This document shows, piece by piece, positions 19,454-35,081 of a DNA stretch of 64,000 bases. A model generated the notes under the pieces. That model saw nothing but the letters and a program-made list of their open reading frames with translations, was not told where the DNA came from and made no database searches. Position numbers and translations under genes: made by a program. The DNA is taken from contig JBGOXX010000001.1 in NCBI GenBank assembly GCA_041479345.1, positions 1,209 to 65,208 of the forward strand, in the 5' to 3' direction. The DNA is from Alphaproteobacteria bacterium. GTDB taxonomy: Bacteria > Pseudomonadota > Alphaproteobacteria > DATDPM01. How positions within the stretch are numbered: the stretch's first letter is position 1; every line of letters begins with the position of its first letter.

Positions 19454-19507
19454 GATCCCGACGGTTTTTGCCCAACGGTTTCTGAGCGAAACTCACGCCC
19501 AAAATGA

Positions 19508-19543
19508 AAAGCCCGCGCGGCTTATGCCGCGCGGGCTTTTGCA
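19508..19543. terminator. bidirectional intrinsic terminator between the convergent kinase gene and cspA
   Basis: Perfect 11-bp GC stem gcccgcgcggc / gccgcgcgggc (19511-19521 and 19526-19536) with the 4-nt loop ttat. It is flanked by aaaa upstream and tttt downstream. Confidence 0.6.
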
Positions 19544-19579
19544 TCGACGGCTCCCACTGAGGGAGCCGAGAAACCGATA

Positions 19580-19792
19580 TTAGTCGGCAGGTCCGAGATC
19601 GACGGCCTTTGCACCGCGCGGCTCGTTCAGCACTTGGTAGGTCACGCGTTGACCTTCCATGAGCGAGCGCATGCCTGCACGTTCGACGGCCGTGATATGG
19701 ACGAACACATCCTTATCGCCCTGACCGGCGTCTGGGGTGATGAAGCCGTAGCCCTTGGTGGCATTGAACCACTTAACTGTTCCGGTAGCCAT
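19580..19792 (-). CDS. cspA: cold-shock protein, CspA family
   Basis: 70 aa with GTVKWFNATKGYGFITPD and the RNP motifs KGYGFI / VFVHI. Confidence 0.9.
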   Translation of the reverse strand: MATGTVKWFNATKGYGFITPDAGQGDKDVFVHITAVERAGMRSLMEGQRVTYQVLNEPRGAKAVDLGPAD

Positions 19793-20092
19793 GATTACTC
19801 CTTAATTTAACAAACAACAAAAACGCCGGCCGAGAGCGGCCGACGTTGTACGGGTCTCACAATTTCGGGAAGTAACCAGGCTAGGCCGGTTAGCTTTTAT
19901 GCATGGGCTCTGGAGCACGGTACGCCGATAACTTGTGTGACTTCGGGCCTTATATGGGCGGTTCTTTGCCGCCGCGCAACAAAAATCGACGATTATTAAC
20001 CGAGAACACCACAAGAACTCCCCGGGAAATCTGCGATTCGCGCGGGTAGCGGCGGGTTTCGCAAGAGCGTATGATTTTGGTGACGAGGGGCC
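19793..20092. promoter_or_regulatory. 300-bp divergent leader/promoter region, probably a long cspA 5' UTR
   Basis: Non-coding gap between the cspA start (19792) and the divergent CBS gene (20093). Cold-shock genes typically carry long structured 5' UTRs. Only spurious antisense ORFs cover it. Confidence 0.4.
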
Positions 20093-20536
20093 ATGAAGCA
20101 CAGAACCGTTTCGGAATTTGTGCGCGACCAAGTCGTCGCCGAACTTCCCCCCACCGCCACGGTGCGGGAAGCGGTTAGACTCATGGCCGACCGCCATATC
20201 GGCGCCGTCACGGTCACCGAAACGGGACGTCTGTCCGGCATCTTTACCGAACGCGACATGGTGAGCCGGGTCGCGGCACCGGGAAAGGACCCCGACCGCA
20301 CCACGCTCGCCGCCGTCATGACCGGGCATCCCCAGACGATTGCCGCGGATGCCTCGACCATCGAGGCTCTCCGGATAATGCAGGCGGGCGGGTTCCGTCA
20401 TTTGCCGGTCGTACATCACGGCAAACTTGTCGGCGTCTTGTCCTTGCGTGATTTCACCGGCACCGATTTGATCGAGATCGAACGCGCCTCCGATATCGAG
20501 CGGGCGGTGGCCGAAGGCGGGATACTCCACGACTGA
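20093..20536 (+). CDS. CBS domain-pair protein
   Basis: ATG at 20093 with a GACGAGGGG Shine-Dalgarno. Two CBS motifs are present (HIGAVTVTE...LSGIFTERD and RHLPVVHHGKLVGVLSLRD). Confidence 0.85.
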   Translation: MKHRTVSEFVRDQVVAELPPTATVREAVRLMADRHIGAVTVTETGRLSGIFTERDMVSRVAAPGKDPDRTTLAAVMTGHPQTIAADASTIEALRIMQAGGFRHLPVVHHGKLVGVLSLRDFTGTDLIEIERASDIERAVAEGGILHD

Positions 20537-20650
20537 CCGCCGGCCGCGGCTCGCCGGCTCCGCCGTTTTTCCTAATATTTCAATAAAATCCGCCGCCTCC
20601 AAATCAGGCAGTTTGTCTGCACATTAACGGCATCTTTACCGTCCGGAACG

Positions 20651-22903
20651 ATGATCCGCTGGGGGCAGACGCTCCGGCATCCCCCACAGGGTCCGGGGCC
20701 AGGCAGACGAGACGTTAACGTGCGAAAACAAACCGCGGAGCTCCGCGAAAATATCCGGGAGCCGGCTGATGCAGCCGCGCTCCCCATCGGTGTTCCGGAT
20801 TCATCGGCGGCCATGGCGGGCACCGAACGGATTCGCGACTTCGCGGAACTGGCCTCCGAATGGTTTTGGGAGACCGGGCCGGACCTCCGCTTTACCTTTC
20901 TGTCGGAGCGCTTCGAACAGATCACCGGACTTTCTCGCGACTCGGTCCTCGGCCATACCATCCTTGAAGCCGCCCGTGCCGATCTGCGCGATCCGCGTTG
21001 GCAGCGCCATCTTGAAGATTTCTTAGCTCAGCGCCCGTTTCACGATTTCCAATTCGCGACCCAGCTGCCATCCGGAGAAACCCGGCAGTTGCGGGTCAAC
21101 GGCAAGCCCTACCACGATACCCAGGGACGGTATCTCGGCTATCGCGGAACCGGTTCCGATGTGACCGATTCCGAGCGCACTCATGAAAGCCTGTTTGCGG
21201 TCAAAGCGCGGCTCGAACATCTGCTCAACACCAGCCCCGCGATGATCTACAGCTTCAAGGCAGGCGACAATCACGCCGCGACGTTTGCCAGTAACAACAT
21301 CAAGACACAGCTCGGCCACGACCCCCACGAATTCCTCGACGACCCCGGATTCTGGACTCAGCACATCCATCCCGAGGATGCGCCGCGCGTGTTCGCCGAT
21401 ATGGCGAAGTTGTTCAAAAACGGCCGCCATTCTCAAGAATACCGGTTCCGTCACAAGGACGGCAGCTACCGTTGGATGCGCGACGAGTTGGTTCTCGTCG
21501 AAGACAATGACGGAACACCGTTGGAGGTTGTCGGCTATTGGGTCGACATCACCGACCGCAAGCGGGCCGAAGAGGCAGTCCGGGAGAGCGAAAAGGCGCT
21601 GAAGCGGACGAACCGCGCCCTGCAAGCCGTCAGCGAATGCAACGAGGCGCTGGTTCGAATCACCAACGAATCGGAACTCTTGCGCGAGGTGTGCCGTATC
21701 ATCGTCCAATCCCGCAATCATCGTATGGCTTGGGTCGGCCTGACGGAAAATGACGAGGCAAAGACGGTCAGGCCCGCCGCGAACTGGGGTTCGGACGACG
21801 GCTATCTGAGCGAAATCAAGGTGAGTTGGGACGATCACGCGAAGGACCTGGGCCCGGTCGCCCGCGCGATCGTGACCGGCAAGCCTTATGTCGTCCGGGA
21901 CACGGCGAGCGATTCGAATTTCGCGGCGTGGCGCGACGCGGCCTTGAAGCGCGGATTCCTTTCGGTCATCGCCCTGCCGCTGCAAGTCAACGATCGGCCG
22001 ATCGGCTGCTTGGCCATTTATGCGCCCGCCTCCGATGCCTTCGATGACGTGGAAGTCAGGCTCTTGGCCGGCCTCGCCGACAATCTCGCCTATGGCATTT
22101 CCACGATCCGGACGCGCGCCGACCGGGCCCGGGCCGAAGACGCCGTCCGGGAATATGCCGAAAAGCTCGAACGAAGCAATCGCGAGCTCCAGGATTTCGC
22201 CTATGTGGCATCGCACGATCTTCAGGAGCCGCTGCGGAAGATCGAAGCCTTCGGCGACCGGCTCAAAACGAAATGCTCCAGTACTCTTGGCGAAGACGGT
22301 CAGCTTTACCTCGATCGCATGCAACGCGCATCCGCGCGCATGCGGGCTCTGATCAATAGCTTGCTCACCTATTCCCGCATCACGACGAAAGCTCAACCCT
22401 TCGAAGTCCTGAACTTGACCGAGGCGGCGAAGGACGCGGCGTCCGATCTTCAGATGCGCATCGAGAAAGAAAACGGGCGTGTCGAAATCGCCGACATGCC
22501 GACGATCGATGCCGATGCGACGCAAATGCGGCAGCTCTTCCTCAACCTGATCGGCAACGGCCTCAAATTCCATAAGGCGGAGGAAGCCCCGGTCGTTCGC
22601 GTTTCGGCCGAACTCTGCGGCCGCGACGGCGGCCCGATCGACGGCGCCGATCCGCAGGATCAGTGGTGCCGCATTGCCATCGCCGACAACGGAATCGGCT
22701 TCGACGAAAAATACACCCACCGAATCTTCAGCATGTTTCAGCGGCTGCATGGCCGCAACGAATACGAAGGCACGGGGATCGGACTTGCGACCTGCCGCAA
22801 AATTGTCGAGCGGCATGGTGGCTCGATCACCGCCAAGACGGCGCCTGGAATGGGTGCCACGTTCATTGTGCTAGTTCCGGCACGTCAGGCCCATAAGGAG
22901 TAA
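20651..22903 (+). CDS. PAS-PAS-GAF sensor histidine kinase (phytochrome-type HisKA with the ASHDLQEPLR H-box)
   Basis: PAS repeats, a GAF domain, the H-box YVASHDLQEPLRKI, and an HATPase_c region (IADNGIGFDEKYTHRIF, GTGIGLATCRKIVERHGG). An alternative start lies at 20813. Confidence 0.85.
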   Translation: MIRWGQTLRHPPQGPGPGRRDVNVRKQTAELRENIREPADAAALPIGVPDSSAAMAGTERIRDFAELASEWFWETGPDLRFTFLSERFEQITGLSRDSVLGHTILEAARADLRDPRWQRHLEDFLAQRPFHDFQFATQLPSGETRQLRVNGKPYHDTQGRYLGYRGTGSDVTDSERTHESLFAVKARLEHLLNTSPAMIYSFKAGDNHAATFASNNIKTQLGHDPHEFLDDPGFWTQHIHPEDAPRVFADMAKLFKNGRHSQEYRFRHKDGSYRWMRDELVLVEDNDGTPLEVVGYWVDITDRKRAEEAVRESEKALKRTNRALQAVSECNEALVRITNESELLREVCRIIVQSRNHRMAWVGLTENDEAKTVRPAANWGSDDGYLSEIKVSWDDHAKDLGPVARAIVTGKPYVVRDTASDSNFAAWRDAALKRGFLSVIALPLQVNDRPIGCLAIYAPASDAFDDVEVRLLAGLADNLAYGISTIRTRADRARAEDAVREYAEKLERSNRELQDFAYVASHDLQEPLRKIEAFGDRLKTKCSSTLGEDGQLYLDRMQRASARMRALINSLLTYSRITTKAQPFEVLNLTEAAKDAASDLQMRIEKENGRVEIADMPTIDADATQMRQLFLNLIGNGLKFHKAEEAPVVRVSAELCGRDGGPIDGADPQDQWCRIAIADNGIGFDEKYTHRIFSMFQRLHGRNEYEGTGIGLATCRKIVERHGGSITAKTAPGMGATFIVLVPARQAHKE

Positions 22904-22908
22904 CCTCG

Positions 22909-23376
22909 ATGAAAGCCAATGGAAAACCCATCATCATCCTGATGGCGGATGATGATTCCGACGACCGCATGCTGGTCAAGGACGCGTTCGAAGAAAGCCG
23001 CCTCAACAACGATTTGCACTTCGTCGAGGACGGCGAGCAGCTCATCGATTACCTGTACCGTCGCGGAAATTTTGCCCACCTCAAGGGCCAGCCTTATCCG
23101 GGCCTCATCCTTCTCGACCTCAACATGCCGAAGAAAGACGGACGCGAGGCCTTGGCGGAAATCAAGAGCGATCCGGACCTACGCCGCATCCCGATCGTGA
23201 TTCTGACGACCTCGCGGGCGGAAGAAGACATTCTGCGGACCTACGATCTCGGCGCGAACTCCTTCATCACCAAGCCGGTGACGTTCGAAAGCCTGGTTCA
23301 GGTGGTGCAGGTTCTCGGCAATTATTGGGTCGAGATCGTCGAGCTTCCTTCGATCTGCGCGCCGGCGGCCGCGTAA
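22909..23376 (+). CDS. single-domain response regulator (CheY/Rcp1-like receiver)
   Basis: ATG at 22909 is preceded by the AAGGAG Shine-Dalgarno at 22895-22900. Receiver motifs are ILMADDDSDD, ILLDLNMPKKDG and a T...K pattern. Confidence 0.9.
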   Translation: MKANGKPIIILMADDDSDDRMLVKDAFEESRLNNDLHFVEDGEQLIDYLYRRGNFAHLKGQPYPGLILLDLNMPKKDGREALAEIKSDPDLRRIPIVILTTSRAEEDILRTYDLGANSFITKPVTFESLVQVVQVLGNYWVEIVELPSICAPAAA

Positions 23377-23397
23377 ACCAAACCGATAACCGAACCG

Positions 23398-24597
23398 ATG
23401 CCGGCCGCACCCATCCGCATCCTGCTCGTTGAGGACGATGAGGACGATTACCTCATCACCCGCGATCTCCTGTCCGAGATCGCGGACGTCCAATACGACA
23501 TCAAATGGGCGCCGACGTTCGACGACGGTTTGGCCGCACTTGACTGCGACGCCGACAGCCCGCCGACCTTTGACATTTGCTTGATCGATTACCGGCTCGG
23601 CGAAAAGAGCGGCATCGATCTGCTGCGCACGACCGTTCAGCGCGGATGCCTGATGCCGGTCATTTTGCTGACCGGGGCCGGCGACCGGGATATCGATATG
23701 GCGGCGATGGAAGCCGGCGCCGCGGACTTCCTCGACAAGACGACGTTGACCGCCCCGTTGCTGGATCGTTCGATCCGTTATGCGATCGCCCAGTCACGGG
23801 ATCGCCGGGCGCTGATCGAGAAATCCCATTCGCTGTCTTCGGCGAAGGAACAAGCCGAGATCGCCAATCGCGCCAAGTCGGAATTCCTCGCCAATATGAG
23901 TCACGAGCTGCGCACGCCGCTCAACGCCATCATCGGGTTTTCCGAGATCATGAAGGACGAGCTCTCGGGACCGATCAACAATCCCTATTACCGCGAATAT
24001 GTGCGCGACATTTACGCCAGCGCCAACCATCTGCTCGAAGTCATCAACGACATCCTCGACGTGTCGAAGGTCGAAGCCGGCAAAATCGAGCTTCAGGAAT
24101 CGCCGGTCGAAATCGATTCGACGATTCAAGCGGCGGTGCGGCTGGTCATCGAGCGCGCCCGCGAAGCCGATATCCGCGTCGATGTGACTTTGCCGCAGCC
24201 CTTGCCCCGGCTTTACGCCGATGCCCGCCGCGTCAAGCAGATGATGCTCAATTTACTGTCGAACGCCGTGAAATTTACGCCGGCGGGCGGAAGCGTCAAA
24301 GTCAACGCCCATGCCGACGATACCGGGCTTTCGATCTCGGTGGCCGATACCGGCATCGGCATCGCCGAAGACAAGATCGCGCTGGTCTTCACGCCGTTCG
24401 CGCAAGTCGACGGTTCGTTGAAGCGCCGCTATGAAGGCACCGGCCTCGGCTTGTCGCTAACCAAGGGATTGATCGAGATGCATGGCGGAACGATCGTGAT
24501 GGAAAGCGCGCCGGGGCAGGGGACCACGGTCACGCTGTGGTTCCCCCGTGAGCGCCTGGTTTCCGAAACGGCAGTCCCGGCGGCGCGCACCGCGTAA
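23398..24597 (+). CDS. hybrid REC-HisKA-HATPase histidine kinase (N-terminal receiver)
   Basis: Receiver domain ([10 protein letters not shown]...LIDYRLG) followed by the H-box [21 protein letters not shown] and an HATPase_c region [18 protein letters not shown]. Confidence 0.9.
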
Positions 24598-24661
24598 CGC
24601 CGGTACTGCCATATCCAACGCTTGAGGGTTCCCGGCCCTCGCGCCGTTGAAAGGACGGCAA

Positions 24662-26593
24662 ATGGCCCATTCCGGCTACGATGTCATGGCGAACTTCGCC
24701 GACGCGCAATCGACGGAACCATTTGGCGCGCTCTTCGACAACGACTTCCAGCCGATGCTCCTGATCGACCCGGAAACGACGGCGATCGTCGACGCCAACA
24801 GCGCAGCCTGCGCATTTTACGGGTACAGCCGAGCCGAGTTCGTCCGTCTCAAGAAGACGAACATCAACGTGGCGCCGGAATCCGAGATAAGAGACCTGGT
24901 CAAGAACGCGGTCGTGGGCCACCACACGCGATCTCAACTCCAACATCGTCTGGCCAATGGCGATATCCGCGACGTCGAAGACTGGATCGGGATCGTCGCC
25001 GTCGGCCGGCGGCAACTGCTCTGCTCGATCGTCCGGGACGTCACGGACCAGCGGCGCACCGAAGCGGCGTTGCGGGCGAGCCAGGTGATGCTCGCCACGG
25101 CCGAGCGCATCGCCCAAGTCGGCAGCTGGGATTGGGATATTGCTGGAAATACCTTGGTCTGGTCCGAGGAACAGTGCCGCTTGTTCGGCTACGCGCCGGA
25201 GGACTTCAACGAAAAGTACGAAGGCTGGATGGTGTGCATCCATCCCGACGACCGGAAACGCGTGCAGGAGGCGATCGACGCCGCGGTGGCCGGCCAGAAG
25301 GTCTACGACATCGAATATCCGATCATCGGCCCGGGCGGCACCAAGCGATTCATTCACGCCAGAGGCGAAGTGTTCCAGGACAAGGACGGCAAATCGGTTC
25401 GCATGGTGGGGACCTGCCACAACATTACCGAGCGCCGGTCCGCCGAGGAAACGCTCCGTCAATCGCAAAAGCTCGAATCGGTCGGCCAATTGACCGGCGG
25501 CATCGCCCACGATTTCAACAATCTGCTGGGTGTCATTATCGGCAATCTGGACCTGATCCTCGACCGGAGGAAGCTCGACGCCGGTCTCAAAAAATTAGTC
25601 CAGGCCGCCCTCGATGCCGCGTTGCGCGGCGGCGATCTCACCCAGCGCCTGCTCGCGTTTTCGCGCAAGCAAACCCTGCAATCCAAAGTCATTTATCTCG
25701 GCGAGCGGTTGATTCAGGCCGGCACCTTGTTGCGGCGGACGCTGGGCGAGCAGATCACCGTGAAGGTCCGCGCCGCACCCGATCTCTGGCCCGTGGTCGC
25801 GGATTCCTCGCAAATCGACAATGTGATTCTCAATTTGGCGATCAATGCCCGCGACGCGATGCCCAAAGGCGGGGCCATCACCATCGACGTGTCCAATGTC
25901 CGGTTCGACGCGGACTATGCCGCCCGGAATGTCGAAGTCATTTTGGGCGATTACGTCCTTCTTGCCGTCACCGATACCGGCGAGGGCATGCCGCCGGACG
26001 TGCTCGAGCGCGTCTTCGAGCCGTTTTTCACGACCAAAGAGGTCGGCAAGGGATCGGGTCTTGGCCTCAGCATGGTCTACGGCTTCGTCAAGCAATCGAA
26101 CGGGCACATCAAGATCGAGAGCGCGGTTGGCCACGGCACGAGTGTGAACATCTACTTGCCGCGCGCCGCTGCGGCCGCCGCCGCCGAGGCGGCGCCCGAA
26201 AATCGAAATGTGAATCTATCCGCCAATGGCGAAGTGATCCTGGTGGTCGAAGACAATGACAGCGTGCGCGCCGTCGCCGTCAATCAACTGGCCAGTCTCG
26301 GCTATCGGACGTTGAAGGCGGAAAGCGGCGAAGCGGCTCTCGCCTTGCTCGACAAGCATCCCGAAATCGATCTGATGTTCTCGGACGTGGTCATGCGCGG
26401 CGGAATGAACGGCTATGAGCTGGCGCTCGAAGCCTGCAAGCGCCGCCCCGGCCTCAGGGTTCTTCTGACCTCCGGCTGTGAAATGAAATCCGCCGACGGC
26501 CTCGACGGTGTCGAGAAATTCGAACTGCTGAAAAAACCCTATCGCAAGCGCGATCTCGCCCAAATGCTCTGCCACCTTCTGGCGCTGAATTAG
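24662..26593 (+). CDS. PAS/PAC sensor hybrid histidine kinase with a C-terminal receiver
   Basis: ATG at 24662 with an AAGGA Shine-Dalgarno; the ORF track starts at TTG 24647. Two PAS/PAC domains, the H-box [14 protein letters not shown], HATPase_c, and a C-terminal REC ([11 protein letters not shown]...[13 protein letters not shown]). Confidence 0.85.
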
Positions 26594-27704: not shown

Positions 27705-28133
27705 TTACGATCGGGCTAGCTTGGCGGGGAGGCTCCCGGCATTTTCCACGCCGCCTTCGGCCAGCCAAACCAATGCCTGTTCGCAGGTATTGAAGGTCGC
27801 GAAATTGTGCGTTTTGAAATGAACGGCGATAGCCTTGACGACCTGGTCCGTCCATTCGTCGCGCGAAACAATGGCGATGCGTTTGCCGTTATCGTTTTTT
27901 CCGTTGGCAAACTCATACCATCGGTTCGAAATTTCTCTGACATCGTCAATTCCGATGGAGCCCGTATACAGCGTTTGGTCGGTGAGGCAATTGTAGGTAA
28001 GAACTTCCGGGTGCCGGCGCCAGATTTCCGGAATCTGCGAAACCGCCATCTCTCCGGTCACGTCCCCAGTGTAACGAGTGGTCAGCAGACGGCGCTGATG
28101 ATCAATCTCCCAGGTAATCTCCGACACTGGCAT
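27705..28133 (-). CDS. hypothetical protein, weakly STAS/SpoIIAA-like (DUF3478-like)
   Basis: The C-terminal pattern RIAIVSRDEWTDQVVKAIAVHFKTHNFATF...ALVWL resembles the SpoIIAA-like DUF3478 family from memory. No enzymatic motifs were found. The start is uncertain (28133 or 28163). Confidence 0.45.
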   Translation of the reverse strand: MPVSEITWEIDHQRRLLTTRYTGDVTGEMAVSQIPEIWRRHPEVLTYNCLTDQTLYTGSIGIDDVREISNRWYEFANGKNDNGKRIAIVSRDEWTDQVVKAIAVHFKTHNFATFNTCEQALVWLAEGGVENAGSLPAKLARS

Positions 28134-28283: not shown

Positions 28284-28481
28284 TCAACCATTGCGGTTCG
28301 CGTCTATAGGCACGCAATCGTGGCGGCCGGACAAAAAGCAATCTTGAACCTTCCTATCCGCAGCTAAGTTTTGAACCTGCCGGTAGCCGCCGAGGATCAA
28401 CAGCAAGACGATGATCGCGGCCCCGATATTGGCCGCAACGACAGATCGATCGTCGTTGCGGCCGTTTCGGTCATCGGACAT
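28284..28481 (-). CDS. possible small single-TM membrane protein (65 aa)
   Basis: ATG at 28481 with an AGGAA-like Shine-Dalgarno. One hydrophobic helix (AAIIVLLLILGG). It lies downstream of, and co-oriented with, the secreted His-rich protein gene. Support is weak. Confidence 0.2.
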   Translation of the reverse strand: MSDDRNGRNDDRSVVAANIGAAIIVLLLILGGYRQVQNLAADRKVQDCFLSGRHDCVPIDANRNG

Positions 28482-28525: not shown

Positions 28526-28933
28526 CTACATCGCGCCCTTAAGAGCCGCCGCGGAATCGGCGGCGTCTTTTTTCGCTTCGGTCAGATCGTTCGAGGCGAG
28601 GCCCGCCACGGCTCTCTGCAAGCCGTCGTTCAACGCCTTCTTTTTCGCGGCATCCGCGGTGTCCGGAATGGCGCCGCTACCCATGCCGTCACAAGGGTTC
28701 ATCTGTTTGGCGTCGAAACCTTCGCCTTTCGGCCCGACCAGACAATTCACGGCATGATGCAGATGCGCATGAACCGTATCGATGATCGTGGCCTGAGCGG
28801 CAAGTCCTGCATGCTGTGCCGCGGTCGCCGCTTCCTTGGCGGCGTCGGCCGCCCACGCCGGCGAGGCCGCCAGCGTTACGGCCGTGACAAGAACGAGACA
28901 ATGCTGCATCGCGGATATGGATTTGTTCCTCAT
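28526..28933 (-). CDS. secreted/periplasmic Ala-rich protein with a His cluster and a Cys pair (135 aa)
   Basis: ATG at 28933 with an AGGGAG Shine-Dalgarno. The signal peptide is MRNKSISAMQHCLVLVTAVTLAASPAWA. The mature part contains HAHLHH and NCLVGPKGEGFDAKQMNPCDGMGSG. Confidence 0.55.
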   Translation of the reverse strand: MRNKSISAMQHCLVLVTAVTLAASPAWAADAAKEAATAAQHAGLAAQATIIDTVHAHLHHAVNCLVGPKGEGFDAKQMNPCDGMGSGAIPDTADAAKKKALNDGLQRAVAGLASNDLTEAKKDAADSAAALKGAM

Positions 28934-29133
28934 GCTGGGTCTCCCTGATTGATGGGTGCATGCGCCGGCATTACCGGGGCTGCCTATAGACCGGTGCCGC
29001 CCGGCCTTCATTCCATAGCCTTCAATTTCCGGGCCTTTATCGGACCCGGCCGAGCGGTCGGTTAAGGCCGTTTAACAAACCGTATACCTATTTGCTGTCT
29101 AATCGAGGGCGTTTCCAGCCACTCCAAAAGGCC

Positions 29134-30366
29134 ATGATTTCTGCCCGTTCCGTCACACCAGGCTACGCCGAACTTGCCGGCGGGACGCCGCTGAACGACT
29201 GGACGACGCCGGCGGCGGCGCTTGGCCCGCAATCGACCTGCGCGGAAGCTTCCGATGTCTTTTCCGAAAACCCCGAGCTGACGGCGCTCGCCGTTGTCGA
29301 CGGCTCCCGAATCGTCGGCCTCGTGACCCGCAGCGAGCTGTTCGCGGCGCTTTCCGACCGGTTCGCGGTCGCCGCGGCGGCCGACGAGCCGGTCGCAAAA
29401 ATTATGAATCGCCGGCCCCTCGTTATCGAAGCGAGCTGCGATTTTGAAAAACTGATCGACATGGTCGCATCCAAACGCTCCGACGCCTTCGCCGCCGGAT
29501 TTATCGTGACGCAAAACGGCGTCTATCGCGGCATCGGGGTCGTCCGATTGCTGATGGGTGCCGCCGCCGACCGGCTCGCCCAGCGGCATACCGAAATCCA
29601 GCGCGCACAGATGGAAGCCGAGCAGTCGAGCAAGAGCAAGGCGCAATTCCTTGCCGCGGTCAGTCACGAACTGCGCACGCCCTTGAACGCCATCATTGGA
29701 TTTTCGCAGATCATTGCCGAAGGCACTTTCGGTCCGAATGACTTCGAACGCTATCGCGGCTATGCCGCGGATATTCAAAATAGCGGCGAGCATCTGCTGG
29801 AGATCATCAACGACATTCTCGATATCTCCAAAATCGAATCCGGCAAATTGGTCTTGCACGAGGAATTCCTGGACATCGAACCTCTCGTCGACGTCACGCT
29901 GCGCCTGGTGCGCCAACGCGCCTTGGAAAATCAGGTGGCGCTCGCCGTTCAGGTCGGTGGGCCGCCCTTCCGCCTGCGCGGCGACAAGCGGTTGCTTCGC
30001 CAGCTCCTGCTGAACCTTGTCGCCAACGCCGTAAAATTCACGCCCCCCACCGGCAAGGTGACGGTCTCCGCCCATCGAACACCGGATGGCGGTTTGTCCG
30101 TCGTCGTCGAAGATACCGGCATCGGAATCGCCAGCGAAGACATCCCGAAGGCGATGATGCCATTCGGGCAAGTGGATAGCCGGTTGGGACGCAAATACGA
30201 AGGCACCGGGCTCGGCCTTCCGTTGGCCAAGGCAATGGCGGAAGCCCATGGCGGTACGCTCAAATTGGAAAGCCAGCTCGGCGTTGGAACGATGGTGACG
30301 GTGCGGCTGCCCGCCGAACGCTTGATCGAATTGCCGGAAGACGGACTCGGGAGCGAAGCGGTATGA
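29134..30366 (+). CDS. cytoplasmic CBS-domain sensor histidine kinase
   Basis: ATG at 29134 with an AAAGG Shine-Dalgarno; the ORF track starts at TTG 29092. An N-terminal CBS pair precedes the H-box [21 protein letters not shown] and HATPase_c GTGLGLPLAKAMAEAHGG. No TM segment. Confidence 0.85.
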   Translation: MISARSVTPGYAELAGGTPLNDWTTPAAALGPQSTCAEASDVFSENPELTALAVVDGSRIVGLVTRSELFAALSDRFAVAAAADEPVAKIMNRRPLVIEASCDFEKLIDMVASKRSDAFAAGFIVTQNGVYRGIGVVRLLMGAAADRLAQRHTEIQRAQMEAEQSSKSKAQFLAAVSHELRTPLNAIIGFSQIIAEGTFGPNDFERYRGYAADIQNSGEHLLEIINDILDISKIESGKLVLHEEFLDIEPLVDVTLRLVRQRALENQVALAVQVGGPPFRLRGDKRLLRQLLLNLVANAVKFTPPTGKVTVSAHRTPDGGLSVVVEDTGIGIASEDIPKAMMPFGQVDSRLGRKYEGTGLGLPLAKAMAEAHGGTLKLESQLGVGTMVTVRLPAERLIELPEDGLGSEAV

Positions 30367-31724
30367 GCCATCGGCCGATCGCCGCCATTCTGCAAATTGC
30401 GGCAGTCGCCGCGATCACCATCCTCGCAACGGAATCGTCGGTGGGCGCCGAATCGTCGATTCTCGATTACGACAGCGGCGGCCATCTACGGAAATTGCAC
30501 GACGTGGCGCCCGAAACGCCGCGCACATCCGGCCAGACCCAATCCGGACAGACCCAATCCGGACAAGCGTCCGACGCGGCGGCGGCCCCGGAATTCGACC
30601 CCGACACATGGTTCGAGCCGGATCAGGTGCTGATCGCCAATCCCCCGGCAAATTTCGAGGATACGGTCAGGTTCGAAGGCTTCCACGTTCTCCAAAAGGT
30701 GCCGCTCAAAGCCCTGGCGATGGAGGTCTGGCGCGTCCACACCCCCGATAAGATCGGCGTCGGCGATGCGGTTGCCCAGCTGCGGCAGGAATTCCCGGGT
30801 TTACTTGTCGATGCCGATCACCTCTACCGGCAAAGCGCTGGACCGGCCTCTGCGGCGACGGCGAGTCAAGCGCGGGCGATCATCGGCTGGAGCGATCTCG
30901 ATCCCGGCTGCGGCACCGGCATCAAGATCGGCATGGTCGATACGCCGGTTGATGTGACCCATCGCGCCTTGGCCGGTCAGAAAATCGTCTATCGCTCCTT
31001 CATTCTGCCCTCACGCACACCGGCACCGGCCGATCATGGAACCGCCATCGCCGCGATGCTGGTCGGCAAGCCGGGAAATGACGGCTTCGGCGGTCTCTTG
31101 CCGGGGGCGGAGCTGCTGGCCGGGAATATCTTCACCTTCAACGATCAGGGCGCTGAAATGGCCGATGTGGTGGCACTTCTGCGCGCCCTCGACTGGCTGA
31201 CCGCCGAGAAAGTACAGGTCGTGAATCTCAGCATGGCGGGCGCCGACAATCAGCTGATGCACCATGTGGTCGAGCAAGCGGGGGCCCGCGGCATGGTCCT
31301 CGTGGCCGCGGTCGGCAATTGGGGCACGACCGACCGGCCGGCCTATCCGGCGGCCTATGCCCAGGCCATCGGGGTTACCGCCGTCGACGCCAACGACTCT
31401 ATTTATTCCTATGCAAACCGCGGTTCCTATGTCGCCTTTGCCGCACCCGGCGTCCAGATCTGGACCGCGGTGCCGGGGGGCGGCCGGTTCCAAAGCGGAA
31501 CATCGTTCGCGGTGCCTTATTTGACGAGCGTCATTGCGACCGAAATGGCGGCGGGGCGGGCACCTTCGGCCGAACGCATTCGCGACCTCCTGAGTCACGA
31601 AGCGGTCGATCTCGGCCCGCCGGGCAAGGACAATACTTTCGGTTGGGGGCTCATCAGAACGCCGCCTTTGTGCAACCAAGGCGGCGCGCCGCAGAATCCC
31701 GATGCGGCCGATGCCGCTCACTAA
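30363..31724 (+). CDS. secreted S8-family serine peptidase (subtilisin-like)
   Basis: A signal peptide precedes the Asp region GMVDTPVD, His DHGTAIAAML, oxyanion Asn VVNLSMAG and Ser GTSFAVPY. The start overlaps the kinase stop (ATGA, 30363-30366). It contains an SGQTQSGQTQSGQ micro-repeat. Confidence 0.85.
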   Translation: MSHRPIAAILQIAAVAAITILATESSVGAESSILDYDSGGHLRKLHDVAPETPRTSGQTQSGQTQSGQASDAAAAPEFDPDTWFEPDQVLIANPPANFEDTVRFEGFHVLQKVPLKALAMEVWRVHTPDKIGVGDAVAQLRQEFPGLLVDADHLYRQSAGPASAATASQARAIIGWSDLDPGCGTGIKIGMVDTPVDVTHRALAGQKIVYRSFILPSRTPAPADHGTAIAAMLVGKPGNDGFGGLLPGAELLAGNIFTFNDQGAEMADVVALLRALDWLTAEKVQVVNLSMAGADNQLMHHVVEQAGARGMVLVAAVGNWGTTDRPAYPAAYAQAIGVTAVDANDSIYSYANRGSYVAFAAPGVQIWTAVPGGGRFQSGTSFAVPYLTSVIATEMAAGRAPSAERIRDLLSHEAVDLGPPGKDNTFGWGLIRTPPLCNQGGAPQNPDAADAAH

Positions 31725-31818
31725 TCGGCTTCTAGGGAAGGCTTCGGAAGAGAGCGCGTTGCGGGAATCGTCTTGCTGTGGCAAAAATCGCCGCCGTGAT
31801 TGAAATCGCCGGTCGCCC

Positions 31819-32841
31819 GTGAACCTTCCGATCCGACTTGCCCGTGCGCTGTGCGGTTTGCTGGCCTTGTTTTGGGCCGGGACTGCCTTGGCCGATGACG
31901 TTTCCCCAGCCGACAATGACGCCTTTGCCGCCTGGCTTACCGATCTGCGCGCCGAAGCGGTCGCTCGCGGGATCTCCCAGCAGACGGTCGATTTGGCGCT
32001 TGCCGATGTCACGCCGCTCGAACGCGTGATCGAGCGCGATCGTACACAGCCGGAATTCACCCAGACCCTGGATCAGTACTTAAATAAGCGGGTAACGGAG
32101 GACTTGGTCTCACAAGGGCAACAACTGGTCCAAGAGAACCGGGCCCTGCTCGAACGCGATTACAAGAAATACGGGGTTCAGCCGCGCTTCGTCGTGGCGT
32201 TGTGGGGGATAGAAACCAAGTATGGGCGCTATACCGGCGGTTTCGGGGTCGTTCAGGCGCTCGTGACGCTCGCCTATGACGATCGGCGCAAGGACAAGTT
32301 CCGTGAGGAGTTGTTCTTCGCCCTTAAGATTCTGGATGAAGGCGATATCGAGCTTCCCAACATGACCGGGTCGTGGGCCGGTGCTATGGGCCAGAGCCAG
32401 TTCATGCCGTCGGTGTTCTTCAAATATGCGGTCGACGGCGACGGCGATGGCAAACGCGATATCTGGACCGACAAGGCGGACATCTTCGCGTCGGCCGCCA
32501 ATTACCTCTCCCAGTCGGGATGGAAAGGCGACCAAACTTGGGGCCGCGAAGTTCAGCTGCCGCCGGATTTCGACGCCTCCCTGGCGGATCCCTTCGACAA
32601 ACAAAGCGATCACGAGAAGCTGCGCAAGCCGCTGAGCGAATGGCAGAAGCTTGGCGTGCGCCGCGCCGATGGGGGACCGTTGCCTGCCCGCGATCTCGAG
32701 GCGGCACTCATCCTGCCCGATGGGCGGGACGGCAAGGCCTATCTCGTCTACGATAATTTCCGCGTTTTGCTGACCTGGAATCCGGCATTCCTGTTCGCCG
32801 TTACGGTGGGCACGCTTGCCGATAAGCTGGATGACGAATAA
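31819..32841 (+). CDS. mltB: lytic murein transglycosylase (MltB family)
   Basis: GTG start at 31819, signal peptide, and the catalytic WGIETKYG motif within an SLT_2 domain. Confidence 0.85.
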   Translation: MNLPIRLARALCGLLALFWAGTALADDVSPADNDAFAAWLTDLRAEAVARGISQQTVDLALADVTPLERVIERDRTQPEFTQTLDQYLNKRVTEDLVSQGQQLVQENRALLERDYKKYGVQPRFVVALWGIETKYGRYTGGFGVVQALVTLAYDDRRKDKFREELFFALKILDEGDIELPNMTGSWAGAMGQSQFMPSVFFKYAVDGDGDGKRDIWTDKADIFASAANYLSQSGWKGDQTWGREVQLPPDFDASLADPFDKQSDHEKLRKPLSEWQKLGVRRADGGPLPARDLEAALILPDGRDGKAYLVYDNFRVLLTWNPAFLFAVTVGTLADKLDDE

Positions 32842-32873
32842 GCTTGCGCCGATTTCGGCTGCGGGGGAGCCGC

Positions 32874-33872
32874 ATGCTCGCTTCTAGGCGCTGGATCGCG
32901 CCCTGTCTGATGGCCGCGTCGGGGCTCATGCTGGCTTCCTGTGCGGAAACCGCAATCGTTGCCAATACCACCAAAGAAATCACCCAGGCTTCGACTCCGG
33001 CGGCGAAATCGTCTCCGGTCTATAAGGTCGGCAAGCCCTATCAGGTGGACGGCGTTTGGTATTACCCCGGCGCCGACTACAGTTACGTCGCGACCGGCAT
33101 CGCTTCGTGGTATGGGCCGGATTTCCACGGCAAGCTCACGGCGAACGGCGAAGTCTTCGACATGAACGAAGTGACCGGCGCGCACAAGACCCTGCCGCTG
33201 CCGACCATCGCCCGCGTCACCAATCTGGACAACGGCCGTTCGATCATGGTGCGAATCAACGATCGCGGACCGTTCGTGAACGGACGGATCATCGACCTTT
33301 CGCGCCGCGCGGCGCAGCTTTTAGGCTTCGAGCAGGCCGGAACCGCCAAGGTCCGGGTTGAGGTGGAGGCCGATCAAAGCCGGCAACTGGCTCTGTCCCT
33401 GCCGCACGATTCGAACGAGGCCGTGCCGGCGCCCGCCGTCATTGCGGCGCCGCGTGCCCCCGTCGAAGCCCAGGCCTTGCCGCCGCCCGGGCAATCGGCC
33501 CTGGCGAGCCCGCCGCCCGCCGCTCCATCTCCGGCTCCGGCTCCGGCGAAACCAGCTCCGCTCCTCCAGGCGGCCGCGGATCCGCCGCCGGCGGCCATCA
33601 AAGCGCCGCCACCCGTCGTCACCCAAGGCGCGCCCGGGCCGACCAATGTCTATGTTCAGGCCGGGGCGTTCAGCCAATTCGACAATGCCAATCGTTTGCG
33701 TGCCCAATTGTCGCCCCTTGGCGATGCCAAGATTTCGCCGGTCTTGGTCAACAATCAACAAATGTTCCGGGTGCGGCTGGGACCGCTCAATAATGTCGGC
33801 GCCGCCGATCAGTTGTTGGATCGGATCATCAAGGCGGGCTATAAGAACGCCGAATTGGTCGTTGCCGAATAG
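32874..33872 (+). CDS. rlpA: septal ring lytic transglycosylase RlpA family lipoprotein (DPBB + SPOR)
   Basis: ATG at 32874 with a GGGGGAG Shine-Dalgarno and lipobox LASC. DPBB core (WYGPDFHGKLTANGEVFD...RINDRGPF), a Pro/Ala-rich linker, and a C-terminal SPOR domain (VYVQAGAFSQFDNANRL). Confidence 0.85.
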   Translation: MLASRRWIAPCLMAASGLMLASCAETAIVANTTKEITQASTPAAKSSPVYKVGKPYQVDGVWYYPGADYSYVATGIASWYGPDFHGKLTANGEVFDMNEVTGAHKTLPLPTIARVTNLDNGRSIMVRINDRGPFVNGRIIDLSRRAAQLLGFEQAGTAKVRVEVEADQSRQLALSLPHDSNEAVPAPAVIAAPRAPVEAQALPPPGQSALASPPPAAPSPAPAPAKPAPLLQAAADPPPAAIKAPPPVVTQGAPGPTNVYVQAGAFSQFDNANRLRAQLSPLGDAKISPVLVNNQQMFRVRLGPLNNVGAADQLLDRIIKAGYKNAELVVAE

Positions 33873-33917
33873 CGCCCCGAAGCCGCGCCCGAACGCCTGC
33901 AAAGTAAGAAGGAAACG

Positions 33918-35081
33918 ATGATCCATAGGCACGCCATCGATTTTGTTCCCGGTATTTTTCGCGCTTCCGCCGCCGGGTTGCTCACCCTCGTCCTGCTGGC
34001 CGGTCCGGCGCGGGCGATCGATACGGAAGCCAAGCAAGCCTTCATTGTCGATTACGACACCGGCACCGTCCTGCTGGAAAAGAGCGCCGACGAGCAAATG
34101 CATCCCTCGTCCATGAGCAAGCTGATGACGCTCTACGTGCTCTTCGATCACCTGAAGAGCGGAAGCGTCAAGCTCGATGACGAACTGCCGGTCAGCGACA
34201 AAGCGTGGAAGATGGGCGGCAGCAAGATGTTCGTCCCTAACGGCGGCAAGGTGAAGGTCGAGGATTTGATCCGCGGGATCGCGATTCAGTCCGGCAACGA
34301 CGCCTGCGTCGTCGTCGCCGAAGGCATCGCCGGAAGCGAAGACGCCTTCGCCGATCAGATGAACCAGAAGGGCAAGCAGATCGGCTTAACGAATTCGACA
34401 TTCAAGAATGCCACCGGCTGGCCCGATCCCGGGCATTTGATGACGGCGCGCGATCTCGCCATCCTGGCGCGCCACCTCATTGCCGACTTTCCCGAGTACT
34501 ATCACTATTTCAGCGAGATCGACTTCACCTACAACGGAATCAAACAGGGCAACCGCAATCCCCTCCTTTACAAGAATCTGGGGGCCGACGGCCTGAAGAC
34601 CGGTCACACCGATGAAGGGGGATATGGAGAAGTAGGCTCCGCCAAACGCGGAGACCGGCGGCTCATCGTCGTCCTCAACGGCATGGAAACCATGAAATTC
34701 CGCGCCGAGGAATCCGAAAAGCTCATCGACTGGGGCTTCAACGAGTACAACAATTACGCCTTGCTCAAGGCCGGCGACACGATAAGCGACGCCGAAGTCT
34801 GGCTCGGCAATGCGCCGACGGTGCCCTTGGTCATGCCATCGAATGTGGTCGTCACCTTGCCGCGCAAGGCGCGCCGGGGGATGAAAGTCACCGTTTCATA
34901 CGACGGCCCCATCCCGGCACCCATCGCCAAAGGCGCGCCGATCGCGAAACTCGTGGTGACGGCACCCGACATCGATCCGATACAAATCCCGCTCGTCGCC
35001 GGTGCGGATGTCGGTACCCTCGGCTTCACAGGCCGCATCACCGCCGCACTCGAACACGTCATCTGGGGCCAGACAAAGTGA
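33918..35081 (+). CDS. dacC: D-alanyl-D-alanine carboxypeptidase (S11, PBP5/6 class)
   Basis: Signal peptide, SxxK (SMSK), SGN (QSGND) and KTG (LKTGHTD) motifs. A strong Shine-Dalgarno (AAGAAGGAAACG) precedes the start. Confidence 0.9.
   Translation: MIHRHAIDFVPGIFRASAAGLLTLVLLAGPARAIDTEAKQAFIVDYDTGTVLLEKSADEQMHPSSMSKLMTLYVLFDHLKSGSVKLDDELPVSDKAWKMGGSKMFVPNGGKVKVEDLIRGIAIQSGNDACVVVAEGIAGSEDAFADQMNQKGKQIGLTNSTFKNATGWPDPGHLMTARDLAILARHLIADFPEYYHYFSEIDFTYNGIKQGNRNPLLYKNLGADGLKTGHTDEGGYGEVGSAKRGDRRLIVVLNGMETMKFRAEESEKLIDWGFNEYNNYALLKAGDTISDAEVWLGNAPTVPLVMPSNVVVTLPRKARRGMKVTVSYDGPIPAPIAKGAPIAKLVVTAPDIDPIQIPLVAGADVGTLGFTGRITAALEHVIWGQTK

What the first reader, a model, noticed from the sequence alone, without database searches (positions are those of the whole stretch)
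29134..31724. Cytoplasmic CBS-sensor histidine kinase translationally coupled to a secreted subtilisin-like S8 peptidase
The S8 peptidase start (ATG 30363) overlaps the kinase stop (TGA 30364-30366) in an ATGA junction, which implies co-translation. A soluble CBS kinase with adenylate/energy sensing paired to an exported subtilase is an unusual operon. It is followed by mltB-rlpA-dacC. A secreted His-rich protein is encoded divergently just upstream. This suggests a signalling-controlled envelope proteolysis or remodelling module.
Basis: partly seen in the sequence, partly recalled or inferred. Interest (0 to 1): 0.6.

Follow-up and report, generated by a model that had tools for sequence, protein, structure and literature searches.

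The report
Orphan kinase gene overlapping exported subtilisin gene
A soluble sensor-kinase gene and an exported subtilisin-type protease gene really do overlap by four bases here, but the pairing is confined to a small group of uncultured alphaproteobacteria and has been lost within it, so it looks like an ordinary lineage-specific operon rather than a new signalling module.

Summary
A 410-aa cytoplasmic histidine kinase (CBS pair + HisKA + HATPase_c, 29134-30366) ends in an ATGA overlap with a 453-aa pre-pro-subtilisin (S8, 30363-31724). The S8 has an intact D193/H225/N288/S381 catalytic set. mltB-rlpA-dacC-tmk-holB-metG follow on the same strand.

The pair is conserved, but only in a narrow clade of uncultured alphaproteobacteria. 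Seven lineages have it (S8 identity 59-92%). The junction is -4 in the three closest and +3 to +64 nt in the others. Three lineages of the same S8 clade lack the kinase, and two of them are nested among kinase-bearing ones.

Kinase orthologues at 42-47% identity sit in unrelated contexts. S8 relatives at 39-49% have no kinase. Forty of 59 more distant S8 loci sit next to an ECF sigma/anti-sigma pair instead. No response regulator lies in the operon.

Best reading: a lineage-specific co-transcribed pair. An orphan kinase gene sits in front of a periplasmic protease gene that neighbours a housekeeping peptidoglycan cluster. A functional link beyond co-expression is not shown.

The "His-rich" neighbour is a small secreted protein of a widespread uncharacterised family and is adjacent only in the three closest genomes. 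Interest is low to moderate.

The parts
29134..30366 (+). Orphan cytoplasmic histidine kinase gene, 410 aa (CBS pair - signalling helix - DHp/HisKA - CA/HATPase_c)
   Evidence: ORF. Pfam CBS, HisKA and HATPase_c. Same gene call in public copies of the locus. No TM segment. AF2 model with mean pLDDT 81.7.
29191..29538 (+). Sensor region, aa 20-135: CBS pair (Bateman-type module)
   Evidence: Pfam CBS gives 2 stretches, 37 bits on the isolated N-terminus. AF2 shows a beta-alpha-beta-beta-alpha topology twice, pLDDT 85-93. The region is conserved along the ~400-aa kinase family.
29638..29844 (+). HisKA/DHp domain. The phospho-acceptor His178 (H-box HELRTP) is at nt 29665-29667.
   Evidence: Pfam HisKA at residues 169-237. 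H-box position. Invariant in alignment A3.
29980..30318 (+). HATPase_c catalytic domain with N, G1, F and G2 boxes intact
   Evidence: Pfam. Motif positions 294, 327, 343 and 357.
30363..30366 (+). ATGA stop/start overlap between the kinase and peptidase genes. A GGGAG Shine-Dalgarno-like sequence lies 9 nt upstream of the ATG.
   Evidence: Sequence. The overlap is also present in L084 and L094. It is replaced by gaps of +3, +15, +24 and +64 nt in L109, L085, L087 and L089.
30363..31724 (+). Pre-pro-subtilisin-type S8 serine peptidase gene, 453 aa
   Evidence: ORF. Pfam Peptidase_S8 102.8 bits. AF2 mean pLDDT 84. Best PDB fold matches are unautoprocessed pro-subtilisin E and pro-Tk-subtilisin.
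30363..30449 (+). N-terminal signal peptide (or signal anchor), aa 1-29. Cleavage after VGA is judged by eye.
   Evidence: Hydrophobic stretch at residues 3-27, KD 2.13. Helix 5-22 in the model. Equivalent hydrophobic N-termini in homologues. The cleavage site is an inference.
30612..30833 (+). Propeptide-like domain, aa 84-157 (beta-alpha-beta-beta-alpha-beta)
   Evidence: AF2 secondary structure with pLDDT >90. Foldseek alignments of 370-418 columns to pro-subtilisins cover the prodomain plus the catalytic domain. No Pfam hit for this region.
30912..31673 (+). Catalytic domain, aa 184-437. Asp193 is at nt 30939, His225 at nt 31035, the oxyanion Asn288 at nt 31224 and Ser381 at nt 31503. Cys183 and Cys437 are invariant.
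   Evidence: Invariant columns in the 31-sequence alignment A1. Positions. Alignment to thermitase.
31725..31818 (+). S8-mltB intergenic region, 94 nt, with no recognisable intrinsic terminator
   Evidence: No terminator-like site in the consensus scan. RNA fold z-score +0.75. No Rfam match.
31819..35081 (+). Context: mltB (31819-32841), rlpA (32874-33872) and dacC-like S11 carboxypeptidase (33918-35081). tmk, holB and metG follow on the same strand.
   Evidence: Pfam and NCBIfam. Gene calls. Synteny with S8 is kept in L084, L085, L088, L106, L108 and L109.
28934..29133 (.). Divergent intergenic region upstream of the kinase gene; presumed promoter region. It contains the palindrome GTTAAGGCCGTTTAAC at 29061-29076.
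   Evidence: Sequence. The palindrome is unique in the window against 0.01 expected. The left half-site is not conserved in L094. No sigma-70 consensus match on the + strand.

Best explanation
This is a lineage-specific two-gene operon, possibly the head of a longer transcription unit.

Shown:
- The first gene encodes a soluble orphan histidine kinase. An N-terminal CBS pair feeds through one long helix into an intact HisKA/HATPase_c core.
- The second gene overlaps it by 4 nt. It encodes a Sec-exported pre-pro-subtilisin: signal peptide, short conserved hairpin, disordered linker, I9-like prodomain, and an S8A catalytic domain with an intact Asp-His-Ser triad and oxyanion Asn.
- The pair is conserved in seven lineages of one narrow clade.

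Inferred:
- The two genes are co-transcribed from the divergent promoter region upstream of the kinase gene. In this species the protease may be translationally coupled to the kinase.
- Transcription may read through into mltB-rlpA-dacC, because no terminator is detectable.
- The protease is exported, autoprocesses its prodomain and acts in the periplasm.
- The kinase stays in the cytoplasm and signals to a response regulator encoded elsewhere. One candidate pool is the multi-kinase cluster with a single-domain receiver 6 kb upstream.
- Any link between the two proteins is therefore at the level of co-expression, for example autoregulation of the operon by the kinase's regulator. It is not a direct kinase-protease interaction.

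The linkage is not obligatory, because both gene families mostly occur apart and the kinase gene has been lost from in front of S8 within the clade.
For: Gene structure and overlap.

Kinase: domains; no TM segment and all catalytic boxes present; AF2 model with CBS pair 20-135, helix 137-196, CA 244-399.

Peptidase: Pfam S8; invariant D193/H225/N288/S381 and C183/C437 in 31 homologues; AF2 pLDDT 84 with the prodomain fold; top PDB fold matches are unautoprocessed pro-subtilisins.

Pair conserved with different upstream neighbours:
- window/L001-3, L084 (92% S8 identity) and L094 (84%): overlap -4
- L085/L086/L093 (68%): +15
- L087 (62%): +24, and here the pair stays together although mltB is 3.4 kb away
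- L089 (61%): +64
- L109 (59%): +3

No terminator or structured RNA between S8 and mltB.

Non-obligatory linkage:
- L088 (65%), L108 (59%) and L106/L107 (54%) have S8-mltB without the kinase.
- In the NJ tree, L088 and L108 are nested among kinase-bearing lineages.
- Kinase orthologues at 42-47% identity lie in unrelated contexts.
- Among 80 S8 loci from species-representative genomes, none has this kinase upstream.

Upstream multi-kinase cluster: it includes a 155-aa receiver and a REC-HK whose core is 48% identical to this kinase. The same cluster lies near S8 in L088 and L089.
Against: - No transcript data exist. Co-transcription and coupling are inferred from spacing only.
- Retention of kinase-S8 adjacency while every upstream neighbour changed, and in L087 after separation from mltB, hints at selection for the linkage. 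That would favour a real functional connection over neutral synteny.
- The protease substrate is unknown.
- The regulator is unknown.
- The sampled relatives are metagenome contigs. 'Loss' of the kinase gene could be relocation elsewhere in those genomes.
Confidence: 0.6

Rival explanations
1. The kinase, the protease and the downstream mltB-rlpA-dacC genes form one functional module. A cytoplasmic energy or adenylate signal sensed by the CBS pair tunes periplasmic proteolysis and peptidoglycan remodelling.
For: - Kinase-S8 adjacency is kept in seven lineages down to 56-59% protein identity, while the gene upstream of the kinase differs in each.
- The pair stays together in L087 although it is separated from mltB.
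- S8 sits immediately upstream of mltB-rlpA-dacC in most clade members.
- No terminator lies between S8 and mltB.
Against: - Kinase lost or absent in three S8-mltB lineages.
- Kinase orthologues elsewhere have no S8 or peptidoglycan neighbours.
- S8 relatives at 39-49% identity have neither a kinase nor peptidoglycan genes nearby.
- rlpA-dacC-tmk-holB-metG is a housekeeping cluster whose neighbours may be there by descent only.
- No response regulator in the operon.
- The CBS ligand is unknown.
Confidence: 0.2
2. The S8 belongs to a protease family that is a dedicated partner of signalling systems. It would either cleave a periplasmic sensor or anti-sigma domain or be the standard output gene. 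In this clade the usual ECF sigma/anti-sigma partner would have been replaced by a histidine kinase.
For: - 40 of 59 S8 loci at 33-43% identity have an ECF sigma (Pfam Sigma70_r2/r4) and/or a zf-HC2 anti-sigma gene within 2.5 kb. They are either co-directional upstream (with 4-nt overlaps in L062) or divergent.
- A review notes subtilases in conserved ECF contexts (PMC8999054).
Against: - 0 of 21 closer relatives (39-49% identity) have any signalling neighbour. The ECF-linked proteins may therefore be a separate subfamily.
- There is no ECF sigma gene in the window.
- A cytoplasmic kinase has no periplasmic domain for the protease to act on.
- The one other kinase found upstream of an S8 (L020, PAS-type, no CBS) is at the rate expected by chance.
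Confidence: 0.1
3. The adjacency is neutral synteny with no functional meaning. A kinase gene landed upstream of S8 in a recent ancestor and has not yet been shuffled away in most descendants.
For: - Narrow distribution.
- Repeated loss within the clade.
- Variable junction length, -4 to +64 nt.
- Both families are mostly found apart.
Against: - Flanks on the kinase side have turned over completely in the same set of genomes, yet the pair persists.
- Junctions stay very short, consistent with maintained co-transcription.
Confidence: 0.1

Closest known systems
Pro-subtilisin E / pro-Tk-subtilisin / thermitase (MEROPS S8A subtilisins with an I9-type propeptide)
   Same: - Catalytic Asp-His-Ser order and oxyanion Asn.
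- Predicted prodomain plus catalytic fold. Top Foldseek hits are 3whi, 2e1p and 2z2z, E about 1e-22, over 370-418 aligned columns.
- Best PDB sequence match is thermitase, E 3e-23.
   Different: - Only 23-28% identity.
- About 80 extra N-terminal residues: a conserved ILxYDxxGR hairpin and a disordered linker.
- Two family-invariant cysteines.
- Gram-negative host, so the protein is probably periplasmic rather than released.
- No Pfam Inhibitor_I9 hit by sequence.
DegS-DegU control of aprE (subtilisin) in Bacillus subtilis (from my own knowledge)
   Same: A soluble cytoplasmic histidine kinase is linked to production of an exported subtilisin.
   Different: - DegS has no CBS pair, its regulator DegU is adjacent and aprE is unlinked.
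- Here the kinase and protease genes overlap, no regulator is adjacent, and regulation of the protease by the kinase is not shown.
PleC/DivJ/PdhS-type alphaproteobacterial HisKA kinases
   Same: - The best NCBIfam matches of the kinase core are DivJ (221 bits) and PdhS (194 bits).
- JGI annotates homologues as 'PleC'.
- The core carries the FGP...Y..Y..DI..SG.HLL..INDILD.SKIE motif block.
   Different: - Scores are far below the equivalog cutoffs (1000 and 2000).
- The sensor is a CBS pair rather than PAS or transmembrane regions.
- Orthology, a DivK-type partner and any cell-cycle role are untested.
Exported proteases that control peptidoglycan hydrolases: WprA/Epr (S8) in B. subtilis, Prc-NlpI and CtpA-LbcA (S41) in Gram-negatives (from my own knowledge)
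   Same: An envelope protease encoded beside peptidoglycan-remodelling enzymes. This is a plausible analogy for what S8 might do next to mltB-rlpA-dacC.
   Different: No substrate evidence here. Prc and CtpA belong to a different peptidase family. The adjacency to mltB is restricted to this clade.
ECF sigma / anti-sigma / S8 loci in other Proteobacteria and Nitrospirales
   Same: Same S8 family (33-43% identity). The protease gene is the last gene of, or divergent from, a signalling operon, sometimes with 4-nt overlaps.
   Different: The signalling partner is a membrane anti-sigma plus an ECF sigma, not a cytoplasmic kinase. No ECF sigma gene is present in the window.

Membership tests
Peptidase S8 (subtilase), Pfam PF00082 | Profile score above the gathering threshold | tested here: met
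   102.8 bits against a cutoff of 21.8, residues 184-429.
Peptidase S8 (subtilase), Pfam PF00082 | Catalytic triad in the order Asp-His-Ser, plus the oxyanion-hole Asn | tested here: met
   D193, H225, N288 and S381 are invariant in 31 homologues. They align to the thermitase active-site motifs.
Pro-subtilisins with an I9-type propeptide | N-terminal beta-alpha-beta-beta-alpha-beta prodomain packed on the catalytic domain | tested here: inconclusive
   The AF2 model shows this topology at residues 84-157 with pLDDT >90. Foldseek aligns it to unautoprocessed pro-subtilisins. There is no Pfam hit by sequence, and autoprocessing cannot be tested here.
Mycosin (T7SS-associated S8, TIGR03921) | Equivalog score at or above 278.75, and a T7SS context | tested here: not met
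   104.4 bits. No T7SS genes in the neighbourhood.
QhpE (quinohemoprotein amine dehydrogenase maturation protease, NF049966) | Score at or above 165, and a qhp operon with a radical-SAM/SPASM QhpD | tested here: not met
   79.8 bits. No radical-SAM/SPASM homologue in the window. One follows S8 in L087 and L108.
Class I (HisKA-type) sensor histidine kinase | HisKA and HATPase_c domains with H, N, G1, F and G2 boxes | tested here: met
   HisKA 71.3 bits and HATPase_c 98.5 bits. Boxes at residues 178, 294, 327, 343 and 357. They are invariant in A3.
DivJ / PdhS / PleC cell-cycle kinases (NCBIfam equivalogs) | Equivalog score at or above the cutoff (1000 for DivJ, 2000 for PdhS) | tested here: not met
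   221 and 194 bits, over the kinase core only.
CBS-pair (Bateman) sensor module | Two tandem CBS motifs folding as beta-alpha-beta-beta-alpha, twice | tested here: met
   Pfam CBS 33-37 bits against a cutoff of 24, with two stretches. AF2 topology at residues 20-135, pLDDT 85-93.
CBS-pair (Bateman) sensor module | Binding of an adenosyl ligand (AMP, ATP, SAM and the like) | not testable with these tools
   No ligand assay is possible. Conserved residues are listed only.
Classical two-component operon | A cognate response-regulator gene adjacent to the kinase gene | tested here: not met
   The neighbours are a small secreted protein (divergent) and S8. The nearest receiver domains are 22909-23376 and those in the hybrid kinases at 23398-26593.
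Translationally coupled gene pair | Stop codon of the upstream gene overlapping or abutting the start codon of the downstream gene | tested here: met
   ATGA at 30363-30366. It is conserved only in L084 and L094.
Translationally coupled gene pair | Downstream translation depends on upstream translation | not testable with these tools
   This needs reporter fusions with premature stop codons in the kinase gene.
ECF sigma/anti-sigma-linked S8 loci | ECF sigma and anti-sigma genes within about 2.5 kb of the S8 gene | tested here: not met
   No ECF sigma homologue anywhere in the window. The feature is present in 40 of 59 distant relatives.
Anti-phage defence systems with S8 (PADLOC) | Strong match to a defence-system protease, with partner genes | tested here: not met
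   Only a generic 'subtilase' hit (58.6 bits) and a weak IetS hit (22 bits). The kinase has no hit.

The most novel reading that the evidence does not exclude
This S8 family would be a recurrent, dedicated periplasmic effector of envelope-signalling operons. It would be driven by ECF sigma/anti-sigma in many Proteobacteria and Nitrospirales. In this uncultured alphaproteobacterial clade it would have been rewired to a cytoplasmic CBS-pair kinase. The cell's energy or nucleotide state would then set the level of a protease that trims or degrades peptidoglycan-remodelling enzymes (MltB, RlpA, DacC) encoded directly downstream.
Probability: 0.1. Interest if true: 0.55.

Novelty: new member of a known kind. 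Interest (0 to 1): 0.22.

Why it matters
If the kinase really controlled the protease and the downstream cell-wall genes, it would be an example of a cytoplasmic metabolic signal (through a CBS pair) governing periplasmic proteolysis. It would also give a function to an uncharacterised but widespread S8 subfamily. As the evidence stands, the locus mainly provides a clean annotation: an orphan CBS-pair kinase, an exported pro-subtilisin with all catalytic residues, and a clade-restricted, dispensable operon link. The finding more likely to repay further work is a side observation: more distant members of the same S8 family are very often encoded beside ECF sigma/anti-sigma pairs.

Tried and rejected
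- Operator or CtrA-box idea. The palindrome GTTAAGGCCGTTTAAC at 29061-29076 is unique in the window. Its spacing is N6, not the N7 of a CtrA box, and its left half is not conserved in L094. Dropped as evidence.
- Intrinsic terminator or structured RNA between S8 and mltB. None was found.
- Sigma-70 promoter upstream of the kinase gene. There is no consensus match on the + strand, which is uninformative for this organism.
- Defence-system reading. PADLOC gives only generic subtilase hits.
- RiPP or QhpE-like reading. A radical-SAM/SPASM gene follows S8 in L087 and L108. There is none in the window, and the QhpE score is below cutoff.
- Kinase remnant in the 556-nt gap upstream of S8 in L088. 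There is no tblastn hit.
- L020 kinase upstream of S8. It is an unrelated PAS-type kinase, not a CBS kinase, and is counted as chance.
- Literature. No paper describing a CBS-kinase/S8 pair was found. The ECF reclassification paper has no mention of subtilases in its main text and no supplements are held. One review mentions subtilases in ECF54 contexts.
- The metagenome scan added only two informative loci, L093 and L094.
Full report
**Observation.** The region holds two co-directional ORFs exactly as described: 29134-30366 (410 aa; an alternative TTG start lies at 29092) and 30363-31724 (453 aa). The junction reads GGTATGAGCC, so the ATG of the second gene (30363-30365) overlaps the TGA of the first (30364-30366). 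A GGGAG Shine-Dalgarno-like sequence lies 9 nt upstream of that ATG. Gene callers on three public copies of this locus, including MAG assembly GCA_041500845.1, give the same two genes with the same overlap.

**The kinase.**
- Pfam finds CBS (33 bits, cutoff 24), HisKA (71 bits) and HATPase_c (98 bits). The isolated N-terminus gives two CBS stretches.
- There is no hydrophobic segment (maximum 19-aa Kyte-Doolittle mean 1.06). The H-box (His178) and the N, G1, F and G2 boxes are present.
- An AlphaFold2 model built on 25 homologues (mean pLDDT 81.7) shows a beta-alpha-beta-beta-alpha topology twice at residues 20-135. One continuous helix (137-196) runs from there into the DHp, followed by the CA domain at 244-399.
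- It is therefore a soluble CBS-pair kinase. What the CBS pair binds is not testable here.
- NCBIfam places the core nearest DivJ and PdhS, but far below the equivalog cutoffs (221 against 1000).
- No response-regulator gene is adjacent.
- Six kb upstream lies a dense signalling cluster (18344-26593). It holds a plain kinase, a PAS-PAS-GAF kinase, a 155-aa single-domain receiver, a REC-kinase whose core is 48% identical to this kinase, and a PAS-kinase-REC hybrid.

**The peptidase.**
- Pfam Peptidase_S8 scores 103 bits.
- In a 31-sequence alignment spanning 41-93% identity, D193, H225, N288 and S381 are invariant, as are C183 and C437.
- The N-terminus is hydrophobic (residues 3-27, KD 2.13).
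- The AlphaFold2 model (pLDDT 84) has, in order: an N-terminal helix, a small conserved hairpin (31-48), a disordered linker (52-74), a beta-alpha-beta-beta-alpha-beta domain (84-157) and the catalytic domain (180-437).
- The best PDB fold matches are unautoprocessed pro-subtilisin E and pro-Tk-subtilisin, aligned over 370-418 columns, that is prodomain plus catalytic domain. The best sequence match is thermitase.
- It is not a mycosin or QhpE by NCBIfam cutoffs, and it is not a defence-system protease.
- In a Gram-negative with no further secretion signal, 'periplasmic' is the safer word than 'secreted'. This is an inference.

**Is the pairing conserved?** Yes, but narrowly.

| Locus | S8 identity to window | CBS kinase upstream | Junction (nt) |
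|---|---|---|---|
| window / L001-3 | 100% | yes | -4 |
| L084 | 92% | yes | -4 |
| L094 | 84% | yes | -4 |
| L085 / L086 / L093 | 68% | yes | +15 |
| L087 | 62% | yes | +24 |
| L089 | 61% | yes | +64 |
| L109 | 59% | yes | +3 |
| L088 | 65% | no | - |
| L108 | 59% | no | - |
| L106 / L107 | 54% | no | - |

- The gene upstream of the kinase differs in nearly every kinase-bearing lineage. It is a small secreted protein, a methyltransferase, a PHO4 transporter or asnB on the opposite strand.
- In L087 the pair stays together although a radical-SAM/SPASM gene and others separate it from mltB.
- L088 has cyanophycin synthetase, then a 556-nt gap with no kinase remnant, then S8-mltB.
- L108 has S8, radical-SAM/SPASM, mltB.
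- L106/L107 have a tandem S8-S8, then mltB.
- A neighbour-joining tree of the S8 proteins nests L088 beside L085 and L108 near L109. The kinase gene therefore disappeared from this position at least twice.
- Adjacency or near-adjacency of S8 to mltB-rlpA-dacC is kept in every lineage whose contig reaches downstream of S8. It is thus retained at least as well as kinase-S8 adjacency.

**Outside the clade the two families live apart.**
- A scan of species-representative genomes returned 80 S8 loci at 33-49% identity. None has this kinase upstream. The one kinase found upstream (L020) is an unrelated PAS kinase.
- In the other direction, the ~400-aa CBS-pair kinase family is widespread in Alphaproteobacteria at 40-48% identity over its full length.
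- Three members on long contigs lie next to HtpG, between grpE and dnaK, or next to a nitrilase. None is near an S8.

**A side finding about the S8 family.**
- Clustering of neighbouring ORFs in the 80 loci showed that 40 of the 59 more distant members (33-43% identity) have an ECF sigma factor (Sigma70_r2/r4) and/or a zf-HC2 anti-sigma factor within 2.5 kb. These lie either in the same operon upstream of S8 or divergently transcribed.
- None of the 21 closer members do.
- Seven loci share a five-gene arrangement: two Pfam-less proteins, the sigma factor, the anti-sigma factor and S8.
- A review notes subtilases in some ECF contexts (PMC8999054).
- This suggests that parts of the family are tied to envelope signalling. 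The window has no ECF gene, and the ECF-linked proteins may be a separate subfamily.

**How it most likely works.**
- Shown: gene structure, domain content, intact catalytic residues, export signal, prodomain fold and clade-restricted conservation of the pair.
- Inferred:
  - The two genes are co-transcribed from the divergent intergenic region.
  - The 4-nt overlap permits translational coupling in this species and its two nearest relatives.
  - No terminator or structured RNA is detectable before mltB, so read-through into mltB-rlpA-dacC is possible.
  - The protease is exported and autoprocessed, and acts in the periplasm.
  - The kinase signals to a distal regulator.
- The kinase is cytoplasmic and the protease is not, so a direct interaction is unlikely. 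The simplest real link would be autoregulation of the operon by the kinase's regulator, which would make S8 an output.
- I rate 'lineage-specific co-expressed pair without obligatory functional coupling' at about 0.6. A signalling-protease reading and purely neutral synteny are at about 0.1 each.

**The divergent neighbour.**
- The 135-aa protein at 28526-28933 (minus strand) has a signal peptide-like N-terminus and only six histidines, so it is not His-rich in the usual sense.
- It belongs to a well-conserved family without a Pfam domain: 390 hits, typically 50-75% identity across Alpha-, Beta- and Gammaproteobacteria.
- Invariant residues are H41, H57, H59, H60, C64 and C81, in a motif HxHLHHAVNCLVGPxGxGF...NPC...GxGAIPD.
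- It is adjacent to the kinase only in the window, L084 and L094, so it is not part of the conserved pair.

**Comparison with known systems.**
- The protease is a new member of the S8A pro-subtilisins.
- The kinase is a new member of HisKA kinases with an uncommon but catalogued CBS sensor.
- The arrangement resembles in logic the DegS-DegU control of subtilisin production, and proteases that regulate peptidoglycan hydrolases (WprA/Epr, Prc-NlpI, CtpA). Both analogies come from my own knowledge and were not tested here.
- No paper describing this pairing was found.

**Verdict.** The interpretation goes beyond the evidence. The operon is real in the sense of conserved tight adjacency, but it is restricted to a small uncultured clade, was repeatedly lost, and lacks a regulator or any direct tie to the cell-wall genes. 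Interest is low to moderate.

Noticed in passing
window 28526-28933 (- strand): A small secreted protein (135 aa) belongs to a widespread, strongly conserved family without a Pfam domain: 390 hits, 50-75% identity across Alpha-, Beta- and Gammaproteobacteria. Invariant residues are H41, H57, H59, H60, C64 and C81, in the motif HxHLHHAVNCLVGPxGxGF...NPC...GxGAIPD. It may be a periplasmic metal-binding protein.
   Followed up: partly
L025-L083 (e.g. L062:1345-7485, L067:1887-8077, L037:1786-8026): More distant members of the same S8 family are encoded beside an ECF sigma/anti-sigma pair in 40 of 59 loci. Seven loci share a five-gene arrangement: a ~700-aa and a ~415-aa protein without Pfam domains, ECF sigma, anti-sigma and S8, with 4-nt overlaps in L062.
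   Followed up: partly
L087:7416-8441 and L108:2392-3423: A radical-SAM/SPASM gene lies directly downstream of the S8 gene in two clade members. The two copies are 76% identical to each other. The gene is absent from the window. It may hint at a peptide-maturation role for S8 in those lineages.
   Followed up: partly
window 18344-26593: A dense signalling cluster holds a plain HisKA kinase (18344-19453), a PAS-PAS-GAF kinase (20651-22903), a 155-aa single-domain receiver (22909-23376), a REC-kinase (23398-24597; core 48% identical to the CBS kinase) and a PAS-kinase-REC hybrid (24647-26593). The PAS-HK/REC/REC-HK trio also lies near S8 in L088 and L089.
   Followed up: partly
window 29061-29076: A perfect palindrome GTTAAGGCCGTTTAAC lies 58 nt upstream of the kinase start. 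It is unique in the window (0.01 expected). It is conserved in L084, but its left half is lost in L094.
   Followed up: yes
L107:950-3957: A tandem duplication of the S8 gene (471 aa and 458 aa, each 54% identical to the window protein) sits upstream of mltB in a basal member of the clade, without the kinase.
   Followed up: no
L091:3101-10761 and L090:5001-8109: More distant orthologues of the CBS-pair kinase sit between hrcA-grpE and dnaK-dnaJ in one genome and next to htpG in another. This could be coincidence or a hint of a link to proteostasis.
   Followed up: no
window 28284-28481 (- strand) and 27705-28133 (- strand): A 65-aa single-TM protein and a weakly SpoIIAA/STAS-like 142-aa protein lie between the small secreted protein gene and the methylpurine-DNA glycosylase gene. 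Both are conserved only in the closest relatives.
   Followed up: no
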